Of a DNA stretch of 32,000 bases, positions 13,814 to 16,236 are shown piece after piece. The notes beneath the pieces are model-generated. The model saw nothing but the letters and a program-made list of their open reading frames with translations, ran no database searches and was not told the DNA's origin. Every line of letters begins with the position of its first letter. Position 1 is the stretch's first letter. Both the position numbers and the translations under genes were made by a program. Location: contig JBFWNL010000004.1 of assembly GCA_050251055.1 (NCBI GenBank), forward strand, positions 13,863 through 45,862. Reading direction: 5' to 3'. Source of the stretch: Bacteriovoracia bacterium. Lineage in GTDB: Bacteria > Bdellovibrionota > UBA1018 > JBFWNL01.

Positions 13814-16236
13814 TGAATATGGTGAAGCATTCCTTCAACTACCGCCAAATCATTCTCTGGGGGCTGACCCTTTATCTCACGCTCGCCACGCCGTTCGCCT
13901 TCGGCAGCAGCTATCAGGACTACGAGCGCGTGAAACGCGCTTCCGAAACCCAAGTGCGCAACATCGTGCAGCCGCTCGTTTCTAAATACTGCCAAGACCA
14001 ATGCGAGCTCTTGAACGTCGAGGCGGAAGTAAAGACGGATGATCCGGCGGCGATCGCCCCGGGGTTCGAGGACACGGACACCGCTGGCGGCTTACGCCTG
14101 GTGCCGGCGGTCGTGCGGGTGAAGCTCTTGATCGACGAGATGGTCGGCCCCAACCTGCGCCGTAACCTCATTGACCTCATCCATAAGCACCTCAACGCGA
14201 TGGAATATCCGGTGGCGATCGACACTACGCTCACGCGCTTCCCGCAACCCTTGAACTCCGCACGCAAGGTCGCTGAGCTGCGGGACAAGGTCACGAAACA
14301 ATTCAAAGAAACGCTGGGCCAGCTTTTCAACCAATTCTGTCCTGAGCAATGCCTCCTGGCCGACTATGACATTAAGGTCGAACCGGTTAACTTAGAGGAA
14401 ACGCAGTACGGTTCCTCGGGCGAATACGTGCAGGACGGCGACACCGCGATCCGCGTGAAGAAAGTGACCGGCACGGTGCTCCTCGACACGACGCTCACGC
14501 CCGACGAGCAAAACAACATCATTGAAATGACGAAGCTCAAGACGAGCTACCTCAAGAACGTCGAGCTCATGGCCCAAACCATGACGTTTCCGCATCCACT
14601 ACCGTTCGAAGGCGACGGAAAGCTGGGCGTGGGTCGCGGAGGGCTGGCGGGCCGCGGGGGCAAGAGCCTCTCGGAATCGCGCTCGCTCGCCTCCAACAGC
14701 GACTCCAAGTCGACCTTAAGCAAGCTCGATAAGCAAAATTCCACCAGCAACAGCACGAATAGCAACAACAGCACCAACAGCAGCTCGAACAACGTCAACA
14801 GCAAGGACGCGATCGAGAAAAATGAAAACGCCACGAAGAACGAAAAGTTCGAGCGCTACGAGAAGATCGAGCGCGTGGAAGACGGCGATGCCGTTCAAGA
14901 ACAGCTCAAACGATACGGCCTAATCGCCCTGGTTTTCGGCTGTTCCGTGGTGGCGCTCATGGTGCTCATGTGGATCGCGCTGGCGCGTCGCAACGACCGC
15001 GGTCGCGCGGGCGGACTGCCGCGCTTTATCCAGGGGATCACCCCCGAGTTCCTGCAGCCCAAGGCGCCCGCCGCCGGCGATGGCGGCGTCGGATCCGGTC
15101 GTGGCGAGCTCATCGCCAAGCGGTACGAGATCGAGCAGCTTTGCGAAGAGCTTACCAAGGTGTTTGCCGAGCAGCCCAAGGTGGCCAAACACGTCTTTAC
15201 CCGCATCCTGACCGAAGAGGGCGTCGAAATCACCGCCGACTACCTCGCGATCTTTGGCGAAACGATCGTCATGGACATGTTGCGCGATCCGAACCTACAG
15301 CGTGACTTGACCGAACTGATGGAGTTCTTCGCGAAGAATCAGATTGAGCTCAACGACGACGAGAAACTCGATCGCTTAAAACGGTTGCACAACCGCACGG
15401 TCGCTTCGAAGCTGATCGTGATGGGCAAACGTACGTCCAACTCGTTCGAGTTCCTGTTCGACATGGACAGCCTGCAGGTGTTGGAGCTGATCAAGAACGA
15501 ATCCGTCACCGTGAAGGCGATCGTCATCACGCAATGCGACCCGCAGAAGCGCACGGCTATCTTCAACCATCTGGACGAGCCGACGCGCATGAAGCTCCTG
15601 AACGAACTCTCGCGTATCGACTACCTGCCGCGCGACTACATCTTCAACGTGGCCAACGCTCTCAAGCGCAAGCGTCAGGACAACCCGAAGCTCAACACGG
15701 AAGCCCTGCCGGGATCCGACGTGCTGGTCGGATTGCTCGAACGCACGCCCTTCGATATTCAACGCAATGTCGTGCAACAGCTCGAAGCCACCAACCCCGA
15801 CAACGCCCGGGCGGTCAAGAGCAAGCTCGTCAGCATCGACACGCTCACGTATCTACGCGATGCCCAGCTGCTCGAGATGGTCATGGGCCTGAAGCATGAC
15901 GAGCTCCTGCAGTTCCTGAAAGGCGCGCCGAAGCATATCTGCGACACGATCTACCGCAAGGCTCCGAAGGAGCTCGTCGAAGAACTCAACGAAGAGTTGG
16001 GATCGGTGTCCGAAGTGGGACGCGATGCCTACCAGACCATCGAGCGTAAGCTCATCAATCGCATCAAAGTCATGGCCAACGAGGGCCACATCAACCTCGT
16101 GGAAACCAACGAGCGGATGTTCACCGATCGGCAAAGCAACGTCGAGGCGATCACCCGCGGCGGCCAGGGCGGCGACGGCAACACCGGTGGCATGACGGGC
16201 ACGGGCGGGCAGTTCAAGAAAGTGGCGGGTTGGTGA
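13813..16236 (+). CDS. Bitopic membrane protein: SctJ/FliF-like periplasmic module (two RBM-like repeats) fused through a TM helix to a full-length FliG-like cytoplasmic module
   Basis: 807 aa. Features in order:
- N-terminal hydrophobic segment IILWGLTLYLTLATPFAFG.
- Residues ~45-265: two tandem repeats.
- N/S/T-rich linker.
- TM LIALVFGCSVVALMVLMWIALA (residues ~369-391).
- The cytoplasmic ~400 aa align by eye with FliG.

SFEFLFDMDSLQVLELIKNESVTVKAIVITQCDPQKRTAIFNHLDEPTRMKLLNELSRI matches FliG_M 'PFsFv...dp.ql..fl..EHPQtiAvvLsyLdP..aa.il..Lpe..q.ev..Ria'. LTYLRDAQLLEMVMGLKHDELLQFLKGAPKHICDTIYRKAPKELVEELNEELGSVSEVGRDAYQTIERKLINRIKVMANEGHINL matches FliG_C 'FeDi..Ldd..iq.vLrevd...La.ALKGAs.elkekif.NMSkRAa..lk.ELe.mGPVr..dVeeAQ..Ii.i.rrLeeaGeI'. 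Confidence 0.7.
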   Translation: MNMVKHSFNYRQIILWGLTLYLTLATPFAFGSSYQDYERVKRASETQVRNIVQPLVSKYCQDQCELLNVEAEVKTDDPAAIAPGFEDTDTAGGLRLVPAVVRVKLLIDEMVGPNLRRNLIDLIHKHLNAMEYPVAIDTTLTRFPQPLNSARKVAELRDKVTKQFKETLGQLFNQFCPEQCLLADYDIKVEPVNLEETQYGSSGEYVQDGDTAIRVKKVTGTVLLDTTLTPDEQNNIIEMTKLKTSYLKNVELMAQTMTFPHPLPFEGDGKLGVGRGGLAGRGGKSLSESRSLASNSDSKSTLSKLDKQNSTSNSTNSNNSTNSSSNNVNSKDAIEKNENATKNEKFERYEKIERVEDGDAVQEQLKRYGLIALVFGCSVVALMVLMWIALARRNDRGRAGGLPRFIQGITPEFLQPKAPAAGDGGVGSGRGELIAKRYEIEQLCEELTKVFAEQPKVAKHVFTRILTEEGVEITADYLAIFGETIVMDMLRDPNLQRDLTELMEFFAKNQIELNDDEKLDRLKRLHNRTVASKLIVMGKRTSNSFEFLFDMDSLQVLELIKNESVTVKAIVITQCDPQKRTAIFNHLDEPTRMKLLNELSRIDYLPRDYIFNVANALKRKRQDNPKLNTEALPGSDVLVGLLERTPFDIQRNVVQQLEATNPDNARAVKSKLVSIDTLTYLRDAQLLEMVMGLKHDELLQFLKGAPKHICDTIYRKAPKELVEELNEELGSVSEVGRDAYQTIERKLINRIKVMANEGHINLVETNERMFTDRQSNVEAITRGGQGGDGNTGGMTGTGGQFKKVAGW

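What the first reader, a model, noticed from the sequence alone, without database searches (positions are those of the whole stretch)
13945..14608. Internal tandem duplication in the periplasmic half: two alpha-beta-beta-alpha-beta (ring-building-motif-like) units, each headed by a C-x3-C pair
Residues ~45-150 and ~160-265 repeat the same pattern.
- An amphipathic helix ends in (Y/F)C-x-(D/E)QC: YCQDQC at 13987-14004 and FCPEQC at 14335-14352.
- A strand follows (ELLNVEAEV / LLADYDIKVE).
- A variable loop follows.
- A strand follows (PAVVRVKLLID / KVTGTVLLDTT).
- A helix follows (LRRNLIDLIHKHL / EQNNIIEMTKLKTSYL).
- A final strand follows (YPVAIDTTL / VELMAQTMTF).

This order matches the RBM fold used by FliF, SctJ/PrgK and SpoIIIAG to build inner-membrane rings. 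The paired cysteines are periplasmic and could form intradomain disulfides. Two RBMs plus a C-terminal TM is the SctJ architecture.
Basis: inference. Interest (0 to 1): 0.6.

Follow-up and report, generated by a model that had tools for sequence, protein, structure and literature searches.

The report
Duplicated FliF-like ring domains on FliG
The periplasmic half of an 807-residue membrane protein of an uncultured predatory-type bacterium is a tandem duplication of a small domain that resembles the ring-forming part of the flagellar protein FliF; the same protein carries a whole FliG rotor module inside the cell and sits beside its own MotA/MotB ion motor, so it looks like the rotor of a second, filament-less motor.

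Summary
Residues 33-148 and 149-266 of the ORF at 13813-16236 are homologous to each other (BLASTP 2e-6; profile-profile E 6e-13). AlphaFold gives each copy a helix-strand-strand-helix-strand fold at high confidence. Each copy keeps a cysteine pair at the first helix-strand turn.

The best PDB fold matches are FliF MS-ring chains. A family profile matches FliF's third ring-building motif (RBM3, the S-ring domain) once its beta-collar insert is removed (hhalign probability 87%, score 38 against a shuffled maximum of 20.5). RBM1 and RBM2, the SctJ-like motifs, score at background. So the copies are collar-less RBM3-like domains, not an SctJ module.

After the repeats come a 30-108-residue low-complexity spacer, one TM helix and a complete FliG-like N-M-C region. 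The gene lies in a conserved operon with an exported protein, a TPR lipoprotein, MotA, MotB and usually a cNMP-binding protein. I found this operon in 73 species genomes and in 69 of about 100 sampled genomes of one Bdellovibrionota order. A single-repeat variant exists elsewhere.

Ring formation and rotation are inferred, not shown. Earlier notes of this scan describe the same kind of FliF-FliG/MotAB cassette on other DNA. I found no paper on this family.

The parts
13813..16236 (+). Whole gene: 807-aa protein. Order: signal peptide, two RBM3-like repeats, spacer, TM helix, FliG-like N-M-C region.
   Evidence: ORF list and translation. Pfam FliG_M 1.7e-8 and FliG_C 2.1e-11. Full-length AF2 model.
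13813..13905 (+). N-terminal signal peptide (residues 1-31). Hydrophobic core followed by an A-x-G/A-x-A type site; no lipobox.
   Evidence: Read from the sequence. Orthologues end their hydrophobic stretch with AxA-like motifs. Cleavage was not tested.
13909..14256 (+). Repeat 1 (residues 33-148): helix-strand-loop-strand-helix-strand. Carries the PGF loop motif and ends in F-P-x-P.
   Evidence: AF2. Alignment A3 of 62 sequences. hhalign against repeat 2, E 6e-13.
13990..14004 (+). Cysteine pair 1 (C60, C64) flanking the helix1-strand1 turn.
   Evidence: Invariant in 62 sequences. C-x9-C in five orthologues with both Cys kept.
14257..14610 (+). Repeat 2 (residues 149-266): same fold, with a short extra helix and strand in the loop. 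Ends in F-P-x-P.
   Evidence: AF2. Alignment A4. hhalign.
14338..14352 (+). Cysteine pair 2 (C176, C180), in the same register as pair 1.
   Evidence: Invariant in 62 sequences.
14611..14862 (+). Ser/Asn/Thr/Glu-rich low-complexity spacer (residues 267-350), predicted disordered.
   Evidence: pLDDT below 50 for residues 265-350. Length is 30-108 residues (median 75) in 59 orthologues.
14863..14988 (+). Conserved periplasmic juxtamembrane helix (E-K-I-E-R-V-E-x-G-D motif) running into the single TM helix (residues 351-392). Arg-rich on the cytoplasmic side.
   Evidence: Invariant E350, I352, E353, R354, E356, D359. Helix 357-392 in the AF2 model.
15094..16155 (+). FliG-like cytoplasmic region (residues 428-781), all-helical. 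Aligns with full-length FliG (N, M and C domains).
   Evidence: Foldseek: 3hjl 7.5e-8 over 324 columns; Salmonella FliG about 1e-6 over 312-317 columns. phmmer against PDB FliG, 2.4e-9. TIGR00207 50.7 bits, below its cut-off.
16156..16233 (+). Disordered C-terminal tail ending in the conserved basic motif (K/R)(K/R)-V-A-G(-W).
   Evidence: Alignments A1 and A5. The terminal Trp occurs only where the cNMP gene is present: 26/51 against 0/11.
11782..13017 (+). Operon gene 1: exported 411-aa protein with a conserved C-x-x-C. No Pfam family.
   Evidence: Present in 62/73 loci. A homologue (2e-12) sits next to the single-repeat variant.
12959..13813 (+). Operon gene 2: TPR lipoprotein-like protein.
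   Evidence: Pfam TPR hits. Present in 67/73 loci. Also present in both single-repeat cassettes.
16230..16751 (+). Operon gene 4: single-domain cyclic-nucleotide-binding protein.
   Evidence: Pfam cNMP_binding 1e-19. Found in 55/73 loci; absent between the fusion gene and motA in 11 loci.
16751..17536 (+). Operon gene 5: MotA/PomA-type stator A subunit with a diverged charged cytoplasmic motif.
   Evidence: NCBIfam MotP/MotA/PomA 1e-39 to 1e-44, all below cut-off. PDB MotA 3e-32. Motif analysis.
17555..18370 (+). Operon gene 6: MotB-type stator B subunit (plug, channel Asp in S-Y-A-D, OmpA-like peptidoglycan-binding domain).
   Evidence: Pfam MotB_plug 1.3e-18 and OmpA 3.6e-13. Sequence.
18418..19452 (+). 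Operon gene 7: MJ0042-type zinc-ribbon, TM helix and SH3-like protein.
   Evidence: Detected in 42/73 loci.
10565..11584 (-). Divergently transcribed lipoprotein gene (338 aa, Pro-rich tail). Conserved neighbour; a possible further component.
   Evidence: Lipobox read from the sequence. tblastn match in 50/73 loci. No Pfam family.

Best explanation
Window 13909-14610 encodes two tandem, homologous domains of about 116 residues, exported to the periplasm.

Shown:
- Each domain has an alpha-beta-beta-alpha-beta fold.
- Each is a remote relative of the third ring-building motif (RBM3, the S-ring domain) of the flagellar MS-ring protein FliF. It lacks FliF's roughly 110-residue beta-collar insert between strands 1 and 2.
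- Each carries a conserved cysteine pair across the helix1-strand1 turn.
- The domains head a type-I membrane protein. Its order is signal peptide, two repeats, low-complexity spacer, one TM helix, then a complete FliG-like N-M-C module in the cytoplasm.
- The gene is locked in an operon with its own MotA/MotB stator, an exported protein, a TPR lipoprotein and usually a cNMP-binding protein.

Inferred:
- The cysteine pair most likely forms a disulfide staple.
- The protein assembles into a ring, through the RBM3-like tiers outside and FliG-FliG contacts inside.
- The dedicated, peptidoglycan-anchored MotAB units push on the conserved acidic/basic ridge of the FliG_C domain.
- The ring therefore turns, or is pulled, in the inner membrane, independently of the cell's ordinary flagellar FliF/FliG rotor.
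- The two periplasmic tiers, held on a flexible spacer, pass that movement to the exported and TPR partners.
- The duplication arose from a single-repeat ancestor, which still exists in other lineages.
For: Duplication.

Fold: two AF2 models with repeats at pLDDT above 90.

FliF likeness by structure:
- The three best PDB matches to the two-repeat model are Salmonella FliF chains 7bk0_B, 8zds_A and 6scn_A, at 2.4e-6 to 1e-5 and probability 1.0.
- In the full-length model FliF chains are again the best non-FliG matches (2.9e-4 and 1.2e-3).

FliF RBM3 likeness by sequence profile:
- A profile of 156 repeat sequences gives two collinear local matches to FliF. Helix1+strand1 falls on FliF residues 236-286 and strand2 on 359-375, on either side of the collar.
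- With the collar columns removed, hhalign gives score 38.2, probability 87% and P 3.7e-6 over 77 columns.
- Controls: RBM1 13.8; RBM2 8.5; 300 column shuffles mean 11.1, maximum 20.5; reversed profile 13.9.
- The single-repeat class alone gives 39.5.

Exclusive link to FliG:
- All 151 relatives of the repeat among 1.84 billion representative proteins fall into two length classes.
- All 10 sampled carry FliG_C, FliG_M or MgtE_N hits.

Cytoplasmic part equals whole FliG.

Operon conservation:
- 73 species genomes; motA found in 65 and motB in 61, with the missing ones mostly at contig ends.
- The same core genes surround the single-repeat form in a different order.

Own stator:
- MotB keeps the channel Asp and the OmpA motif.
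- The MotA charged motif differs from the flagellar paralogue in the same genome. The position equivalent to FliG R281 is D/E in 58/59 sequences, while the acidic pair equivalent to D288/D289 is kept.
- Genomes of the order with the gene have on average 3.6 MotB_plug genes against 2.35 without it.

Separate from the flagellum:
- The genome has a canonical fliF-fliG pair elsewhere.
- The FliM-binding EHPQR motif is replaced by an invariant E-S-x-T ... E.

Cysteines: invariant; C-x9-C variants keep both; VKOR is present.
Against: - No oligomer was modelled or measured, so ring formation and rotation are inference from homology and gene linkage.
- Foldseek TM-scores to FliF are low (0.25-0.30, rmsd about 20 A). 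The E-values rest on local 3Di similarity of two tandem domains. Single-domain look-alikes with the same topology also appear at 1e-3 to 1e-2 (OsmC, cation-diffusion-facilitator C-terminal domains, KH domains).
- The hhalign match covers helix1 to strand2 only.
- I chose the collar deletion boundaries after seeing the two local hits.
- Column shuffling is a lenient null. Repeat-1-only and repeat-2-only profiles score just 20.5 and 23.0.
- HMM searches against PDB sequences and Pfam find no RBM family.
- The long disordered spacer between the repeats and the membrane is unlike FliF or SctJ. In those proteins the RBMs sit on the membrane.
- Every genome of the order that I checked also has a flagellum, so a flagellar accessory role is not excluded.
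Confidence: 0.6

Rival explanations
1. Tethered adaptor, not a ring. The two domains are generic small alpha/beta interaction modules at the far end of a flexible periplasm-spanning spacer. They bind the TPR lipoprotein, the exported gene-1 protein or peptidoglycan. The protein would work like TonB or TolA, an inner-membrane protein energised by a 5:2 stator that pulls on an outer-membrane partner. It would do so as monomers or small oligomers, without building a rotor ring.
For: - A 30-108-residue disordered Ser/Asn-rich spacer follows the repeats, and it is Pro-rich in the single-repeat class.
- The beta-collar that closes the FliF S-ring is absent.
- TM-scores to FliF are low, and unrelated folds of the same topology appear among the matches.
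- Exported and TPR partners are conserved in both classes.
Against: - The cytoplasmic part is a whole FliG with N, M and C domains. In every studied case FliG works as a ring.
- The stator is of the MotAB type, with plug and OmpA domain, not the ExbBD/TolQR type.
- The profile match is specific to RBM3, a ring-forming domain, and not to the fold in general.
Confidence: 0.2
2. Flagellar accessory. The protein and its neighbours are extra parts of the ordinary flagellar motor of these bacteria, for example an additional ring or scaffold that recruits one of several MotAB stator sets. They would not form a separate machine.
For: - All seven genomes of the window's order sampled for FliF have it.
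- The own genome has a full fliF-fliG pair and three MotB-type stators.
- Flagellin genes lie within 6 kb in 16 of 73 loci, including this window.
- TPR proteins serve as stator scaffolds in some polar flagella (general knowledge of PflA/PflB; not tested here).
Against: - The FliM-binding motif is lost.
- The MotA and FliG-like charged motifs have diverged together away from the flagellar versions.
- No sigma-28-type motif lies upstream of gene 1, whereas the two flagellin genes in the window have one.
- The same core cassette surrounds a single-repeat form in a metagenome contig without flagellar genes.
- Earlier notes of this scan report such cassettes in non-flagellated species. I did not verify this.
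Confidence: 0.15
3. Metal site. The four cysteines (two C-x3-C pairs) bind a metal ion or cluster between the repeats, rather than forming two disulfides.
For: Four invariant cysteines in two C-x3-C motifs.
Against: - The location is periplasmic.
- The single-repeat class has only one pair.
- Five orthologues have a six-residue insert between the first two cysteines and keep both. That fits a disulfide-closed loop better than a fixed chelating geometry.
- The genome has a VKOR-type disulfide oxidase.
Confidence: 0.03

Closest known systems
FliF RBM3 (S-ring domain of the flagellar MS-ring; PDB 6SCN, 7BK0, 8ZDS)
   Same: - Same helix-strand-strand-helix-strand order.
- Best Foldseek matches.
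- Profile match of helix1, strand1 and strand2 in the same order.
- Periplasmic, and on the same polypeptide chain as, or bound to, FliG.
   Different: - No beta-collar insert between strands 1 and 2.
- Duplicated in tandem.
- Has a cysteine pair at the first turn, where FliF has V-G-x-G.
- No RBM1/RBM2.
- Separated from the TM helix by a long disordered spacer.
- Cleavable-looking signal peptide instead of FliF's TM1.
- Ring formation not shown.
Chlamydiaceae FliF-FliG natural fusion (Bergeron 2016, PeerJ, PMC4768692)
   Same: A natural single protein with two RBM-type periplasmic domains, a TM helix and a FliG-like cytoplasmic part, outside a complete flagellar gene set.
   Different: - About 330 aa, with two TM helices.
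- One domain is SctJ/RBM2-like by sequence.
- Only the FliG M region is present.
- No dedicated MotAB operon described.
- The present family has a whole FliG and RBM3-like repeats.
SctJ / PrgK / EscJ (injectisome inner-membrane ring lipoprotein)
   Same: Topology: exported N-terminus, two tandem alpha-beta-beta-alpha-beta domains, one C-terminal TM helix.
   Different: - No lipobox.
- No Pfam YscJ_FliF match.
- Profile scores to the homologous FliF RBM1 and RBM2 are at background.
- No type III secretion genes nearby.
- The chain continues into FliG.
Engineered FliF-FliG fusions (Salmonella deletion fusions; Vibrio FliFG, PDB 8Z4D)
   Same: Covalent link of the MS-ring protein to FliG that still forms rings and, in Salmonella, works (papers listed). 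8z4d is matched by the cytoplasmic part (2e-5).
   Different: - Artificial constructs.
- Full FliF with RBM1-3 and collar.
- Part of a real flagellum.
TonB-ExbBD and TolA-TolQR (working analogy only)
   Same: An inner-membrane protein energised by a 5:2 ion-driven stator, with a long low-complexity or Pro-rich periplasmic spacer and a distal globular domain that meets outer-membrane partners.
   Different: - The stator here is MotAB-type with plug and OmpA domain.
- The energised protein has a FliG rotor module.
- The distal domain is RBM-like.
- There is no sequence relation.

Membership tests
Ring-building motif (RBM) fold class | alpha-beta-beta-alpha-beta secondary-structure order in a two-layer sandwich | tested here: met
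   Two AF2 models give this order for both repeats at pLDDT mostly above 90.
Ring-building motif (RBM) fold class | Structural similarity to solved RBM domains | tested here: met
   The top three Foldseek PDB matches are FliF ring chains (2.4e-6 to 1e-5). YscD also matches at 5e-3. TM-scores are only 0.25-0.30 for the two-domain query. The FliF matches recur with the second model.
Ring-building motif (RBM) fold class | Assembles into a homo-oligomeric ring at the inner membrane | not testable with these tools
   Only monomer prediction is available, and there are no experimental data.
FliF RBM3 / S-ring domain | Detectable sequence-profile relation to FliF RBM3 | tested here: met
   hhalign score is 38.2 (probability 87%) against RBM3 with the collar removed and 29.3 with the collar. 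Shuffled maximum is 20.5; RBM1 gives 13.8 and RBM2 8.5. The single-repeat class alone gives 39.5. Caveat: the deletion boundaries were chosen post hoc, and only helix1 to strand2 align.
FliF RBM3 / S-ring domain | Beta-collar insert between strands 1 and 2 | tested here: not met
   The loop is about 20 residues in repeat 1 and about 18 in repeat 2. FliF has about 70-110 residues there.
FliF (Pfam YscJ_FliF, PF01514) | RBM1-RBM2 region matching PF01514; two TM helices; C-terminal FliG_N-binding tail | tested here: not met
   No PF01514 hit at E <= 0.01. The genome's only PF01514 match is the canonical 565-aa FliF on another contig. One TM helix plus a signal peptide. FliG is fused instead of bound.
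SctJ/PrgK/EscJ | Lipoprotein signal (lipobox Cys), PF01514 match, type III secretion gene context | tested here: not met
   No Cys follows the signal peptide. No PF01514 hit. The neighbours are motA, motB, a TPR protein and a cNMP-binding protein.
FliG | FliG_M and FliG_C domains above Pfam gathering scores | tested here: met
   FliG_M 35.0 bits (cut-off 25) and FliG_C 44.5 bits (cut-off 23.3).
FliG | Three-domain N-M-C architecture | tested here: met
   Foldseek aligns 312-324 columns with full-length FliG chains of 310-328 residues. Pfam FliG_N itself is not matched in this protein.
FliG | EHPQR motif that binds FliM | tested here: not met
   Aligned positions are E563-S564-x-T566 and E598, invariant in 59 sequences.
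FliG | Charged torque-helix residues (E. coli R281, D288, D289, R297) | tested here: inconclusive
   The D288/D289 equivalents are E/D727 and E728 (59/59 and 56/59). The R281 equivalent is D/E720 (58/59), preceded by K/R719. R737 lies one position from the R297 equivalent.
FliG | Equivalog-level score (NCBIfam TIGR00207) | tested here: not met
   50.7 bits against a cut-off of 226.7.
Flagellar-type MotAB stator (operon partner) | MotA_ExbB domain; MotB plug; channel Asp; OmpA-like peptidoglycan-binding domain | tested here: met
   Pfam hits. S-Y-A-D and N-x-x-L-S-x-x-R-A read in the MotB sequence. Best PDB relatives are MotA/PomA. All NCBIfam equivalog cut-offs are missed.

The most novel reading that the evidence does not exclude
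These flagellated Bdellovibrionota carry a second, filament-less rotor-stator machine. Its rotor is a ring of one protein that unites a whole FliG with two stacked, collar-less copies of the FliF S-ring domain. A private MotAB stator with a re-matched charge interface turns it. A cyclic-nucleotide-binding protein, absent from some lineages, may gate it. The ring's periplasmic tiers sit on a 30-108-residue spacer and pass the movement to an exported protein and a TPR lipoprotein at the outer membrane. The single-repeat form found elsewhere would be the simpler ancestral version. The family would then show that the FliF(RBM3)-FliG-MotAB torque core can work, and perhaps evolved, apart from type III export and a filament.
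Probability: 0.3. Interest if true: 0.85.

Novelty: new variant of a known kind. Interest (0 to 1): 0.6.

Why it matters
Ring-building motifs are the common building block of the flagellar MS-ring, the injectisome base and the sporulation channel.

This family offers a minimal, natural form of the S-ring domain. It has no beta-collar, it is duplicated or single, and it is covalently joined to FliG and genetically tied to its own stator. That makes two questions testable:
- Can RBM3 alone build a ring, and with what symmetry?
- Can a FliG ring be driven by MotAB without an export apparatus, rod or filament?

It also bears on how the flagellar torque core arose. And it may point to an unknown envelope function, such as surface movement, prey contact or outer-membrane work, in a little-studied order of predatory-type bacteria.

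The protein is small enough for direct structural work.

Tried and rejected
- Pfam, NCBIfam and HMM searches of each repeat profile against all PDB sequences found no known family for the periplasmic half.
- hhalign of repeat-1-only and repeat-2-only profiles against whole FliF was not significant (P 0.057 and 0.016). Only the wider profile and the collar-removed target gave a clear signal.
- A simple MotA E98 / FliG R281 charge-swap reading was rejected. The window's Lys at the E98-equivalent is a minority state (N 30, Q 8, K 7 of 62). The conserved acid sits one position later.
- 'Present in a non-flagellated family' was rejected as evidence. Five family-f10 genomes lack FlhA, and the four of them searched for FliF lack it too. 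Only one of the five (G071, not searched for FliF) has the single-repeat gene, on a 12.6-kb contig of a bin with 3% contamination.
- Word-index searches for relatives of the single-repeat form returned almost nothing.
- No sigma-28-like motif was found upstream of the operon, and the sigma-70 scan gave no more hits than shuffles.
- Literature searches found no description of this family.
- Single-domain fold comparison and Cys-Cys distances could not be done.

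
Full report
**1. What is at the coordinates**

The finding lies in one ORF, window 13813-16236 on the plus strand, 807 residues. YCQDQC is residues 59-64 and FCPEQC is residues 175-180.

The N-terminus has a hydrophobic signal-peptide-like stretch ending in A-F-G. Orthologues end theirs in AxA-type sites, and none has a lipobox at that point.

**2. The duplication is real**

- BLASTP of the two halves gives E 2e-6.
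- A Smith-Waterman score of 71 stands 9.2 SD above 1000 shuffles.
- I collected 73 orthologous loci and cut out each repeat from 61 of them. Profile-profile comparison of repeat 1 (A3) with repeat 2 (A4) gives probability 97.9% and E 6e-13 over 109 of about 116 columns.
- The two repeats share invariant residues in register: Cys28, Cys32, Phe111, Pro112.
- A repeat-2 profile run over 401 genomes also picks up repeat 1 in about 30 of them.

**3. The fold**

I ran two AlphaFold2 predictions. One covered residues 32-280 with 21 sequences. The other covered the full length with 59 sequences. Both give each repeat the same order: a long helix (about 29 residues), strand, loop, strand, helix, strand. 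pLDDT is mostly above 90. This is the alpha-beta-beta-alpha-beta order of ring-building motifs.

Foldseek against the PDB puts three Salmonella FliF MS-ring chains first (2.4e-6, 5.4e-6, 1e-5; probability 1.0). The next hit is at 8e-4. YscD, another RBM protein, is at 5e-3. With the independent full-length model, FliF chains are again the best matches after FliG itself.

Caveat: TM-scores are only 0.25-0.30 with rmsd near 20 A. The relative position of the two domains differs from FliF, so the signal is local. Single-domain look-alikes of the same topology also appear at 1e-3 to 1e-2 (OsmC, YiiP/MamM C-terminal domains, KH domains).

**4. Which RBM?**

Pfam's YscJ_FliF model (RBM1-RBM2) does not match. 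HMM searches of each repeat against all PDB sequences find nothing.

I took FliF from 30 Bdellovibrionota genomes and ran hhalign locally.
- Each repeat alone gave only weak hits. Both fell on the same place, the start of RBM3.
- A wider profile (both repeats plus the single-repeat relatives of section 6; 156 sequences, Neff 5.6) gave two collinear local matches. Helix1+strand1 fell on FliF residues 236-286. Strand2 fell on 359-375, the strand that follows the beta-collar.
- After removing the collar columns from the FliF alignment, the match became one alignment of 77 columns, with score 38.2, probability 87% and P 3.7e-6.

Controls:

| Target or control | hhalign score |
|---|---|
| FliF RBM3, collar removed | 38.2 |
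| FliF RBM3, collar intact | 29.3 |
| FliF RBM1 | 13.8 |
| FliF RBM2 | 8.5 |
| 300 column-shuffled query profiles | mean 11.1, SD 2.2, maximum 20.5 |
| Reversed profile | 13.9 |
| Single-repeat class alone vs collar-removed RBM3 | 39.5 |

I chose the deletion boundaries after seeing the two hits, and column shuffling is a lenient null. However, RBM1 and RBM2 are same-fold controls and they stay at background.

My reading is that the repeats are collar-less relatives of the FliF S-ring domain, not SctJ-type RBMs.

**5. The cysteines**

Both pairs are invariant in 62 sequences, and the pair is nearly invariant in the single-repeat class. In the models they flank the turn between helix 1 and strand 1. 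In the hhalign alignment FliF has V-G-x-G at that turn.

Five orthologues have a six-residue insert between the first two cysteines (C-x9-C) and keep both. That fits a disulfide that closes the turn better than a chelating motif.

The genome lacks DsbB but has a VKOR homologue. The disulfide remains an inference.

**6. The rest of the protein and the family**

After repeat 2 come four parts:
- A predicted disordered Ser/Asn/Thr/Glu-rich spacer, 30-108 residues long in orthologues (median 75).
- A strongly conserved juxtamembrane helix.
- One TM helix, with arginines on its C-terminal side.
- A short disordered stretch, then an all-helical region (residues 428-781).

The helical region has these properties:
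- It carries Pfam FliG_M and FliG_C.
- It aligns over 312-324 columns with full-length FliG structures. It is therefore a whole N-M-C FliG.
- The FliM-binding EHPQ...R motif is replaced by invariant E-S-x-T ... E.
- On the torque helix the acidic pair is kept (E/D727, E728).
- The R281 equivalent is D/E in 58 of 59 sequences.

A search of 1.84 billion representative proteins with the repeat-1 profile found 151 relatives.
- One class has two repeats (about 720-990 aa).
- The other has a single repeat (about 540-625 aa).
- All ten that I sampled carry FliG_C, FliG_M or MgtE_N hits.

I therefore saw the domain only fused to a FliG-like module. The single-repeat domain is closer to repeat 1 (5.7e-22) than to repeat 2 (6.5e-17). 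Both values are better than repeat 1 against repeat 2 (6.1e-13). This fits a duplication of a single-repeat ancestor followed by faster change in repeat 2.

**7. Gene context**

The gene is third in a tightly packed plus-strand cluster, 11782-19452:
- an exported 411-aa protein
- a TPR lipoprotein-like protein
- the fusion protein
- a single-domain cNMP-binding protein
- MotA
- MotB, with plug, channel Asp and OmpA domain
- a zinc-ribbon/TM/SH3 protein

Presence of each gene across the 73 loci:

| Gene | Loci with it (of 73) |
|---|---|
| Exported 411-aa protein | 62 |
| TPR protein | 67 |
| cNMP-binding protein | 55 |
| MotA | 65 |
| MotB | 61 |
| Zinc-ribbon/TM/SH3 protein | 42 |

Most gaps are contig ends. 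The cNMP gene, however, is truly missing in 11 loci, where motA follows the fusion gene directly.

Two single-repeat cassettes (a genome bin and a metagenome contig) have the order TPR - MotA - MotB - fusion. One is preceded by a homologue of the exported protein (2e-12).

A divergent lipoprotein gene (10565-11584, minus strand) is conserved in 50 of 73 loci.

**8. Relation to the flagellum**

- The own genome (3.77 Mb, 93.5% complete) has one canonical fliF-fliG pair on another contig. It has three MotB-type stators, one of them in this operon.
- The operon's MotA family has lost the canonical A-R-x-E-G...E charge pattern that the flagellar paralogue keeps. In its place are a conserved K-K two to three residues upstream and an E/D one residue downstream. 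This fits a private interface with the altered FliG-like ridge, but it does not prove one.
- In the window's order, genomes with the fusion gene have on average 3.6 MotB_plug genes (n=69), against 2.35 without it (n=20). Related genomes are not independent.
- The repeat was found in 69 of about 100 sampled genomes of the window's order. Among about 300 genomes of other orders of the phylum the only hit is one weak match, the single-repeat gene in G071.
- All seven genomes of the order sampled for FliF have it, so independence from the flagellum is not shown.
- No sigma-28-like motif lies upstream of gene 1, unlike the two flagellin genes in the window.

**9. Mechanism (inferred)**

- The protein forms a ring in the inner membrane. 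Two tiers of disulfide-stapled RBM3-like domains sit outside and a FliG ring sits inside.
- The peptidoglycan-anchored MotAB units turn it.
- The periplasmic tiers, on a flexible spacer, engage the exported and TPR partners.

The main rival is a TonB/TolA-like tether without a ring. The second rival is an accessory part of the ordinary flagellar motor.

**10. What is known**

- Bergeron (2016, PMC4768692) described a natural FliF-FliG fusion in Chlamydiaceae. It has two RBM-type domains and a FliG M-like tail.
- Engineered FliF-FliG fusions form rings.
- Philip et al. (2025, PMC12199754) note rotor proteins in non-motile species without explaining them.
- Uzun et al. (2022 preprint) note motAB and fliG in non-flagellated Elusimicrobiota.
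- None of these describes this family, the RBM3-like duplication or the operon.
- Earlier notes of this scan report the same kind of cassette in other genomes and phyla, including a seven-gene Bdellovibrionota operon. I treat these as leads only.

**11. Limits**

- No oligomer model, no coordinates for Cys distances, and no single-domain fold search (AF2 cap reached).
- The taxonomy of the single-repeat class is largely unknown.

Noticed in passing
window 16156-16233: The FliG-like protein ends, after a disordered tail, in a conserved basic motif (K/R)(K/R)-V-A/G-G. A final Trp occurs only in loci that also have the cNMP-binding gene (26/51 against 0/11). It may be a docking peptide.
   Followed up: partly
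window 12200-12260 (gene 1, residues about 145-152): The exported 411-aa protein has a C-x-x-C (I-Q-C-L-P-C) that is also present in the homologue next to the single-repeat cassette (V-R-C-V-E-C). A second conserved periplasmic cysteine pair in the system.
   Followed up: partly
window 10565-11584 (-): A divergently transcribed lipoprotein gene (lipobox L-T-A-G-C, helical domain, Pro/Ala-rich tail, no Pfam family) is conserved next to the operon in 50 of 73 loci. It may be an eighth component.
   Followed up: partly
L111 788-2461 (-) and L113 8001-9695 (+): Single-repeat variants: one RBM3-like domain, a Pro-rich spacer, a TM helix and a FliG-like region (557 and 564 aa). The gene order is TPR - MotA - MotB - fusion. 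The composition of the class looks GC-rich, and its organisms are mostly unknown.
   Followed up: partly
Genomes G002, G037, G053 (same phylum, family f7): ORFs of about 320-350 aa give partial YscJ_FliF matches (profile positions about 85-170, E 1e-9 to 4e-11) in place of a full-length FliF. They could be short SctJ-like or Chlamydia-like FliF forms.
   Followed up: no
Own genome, contigs C7:101421-101699 (-) and C10:19012-19311 (+): Two further small ORFs (156 and 147 aa) match Pfam FliG_C above its cut-off, besides the canonical FliG and the fusion protein.
   Followed up: no
window 16230-16751 and loci L044, L045, L047-L049, L051, L055, L056, L063, L071, L076: The cNMP-binding gene is missing from a sub-group of the family, where motA follows the fusion gene directly. 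It is therefore an optional regulator, not a core part.
   Followed up: partly
window 19458-20936 (-): The convergent 492-aa multi-TM protein has an N-terminal D-D-E-A-Y-Y-W motif that looks like an ArnT/PMT-type glycosyltransferase, yet it has no Pfam hit. It is conserved downstream in 33 of 73 loci.
   Followed up: no
window 8085-8115 (-) and 9345-9375 (-): Both flagellin genes carry sigma-28-like motifs (CAAG/AAAG, 15 nt, then G/A-(T/C)-CGAT). No such motif was seen in front of the motor-like operon.
   Followed up: partly
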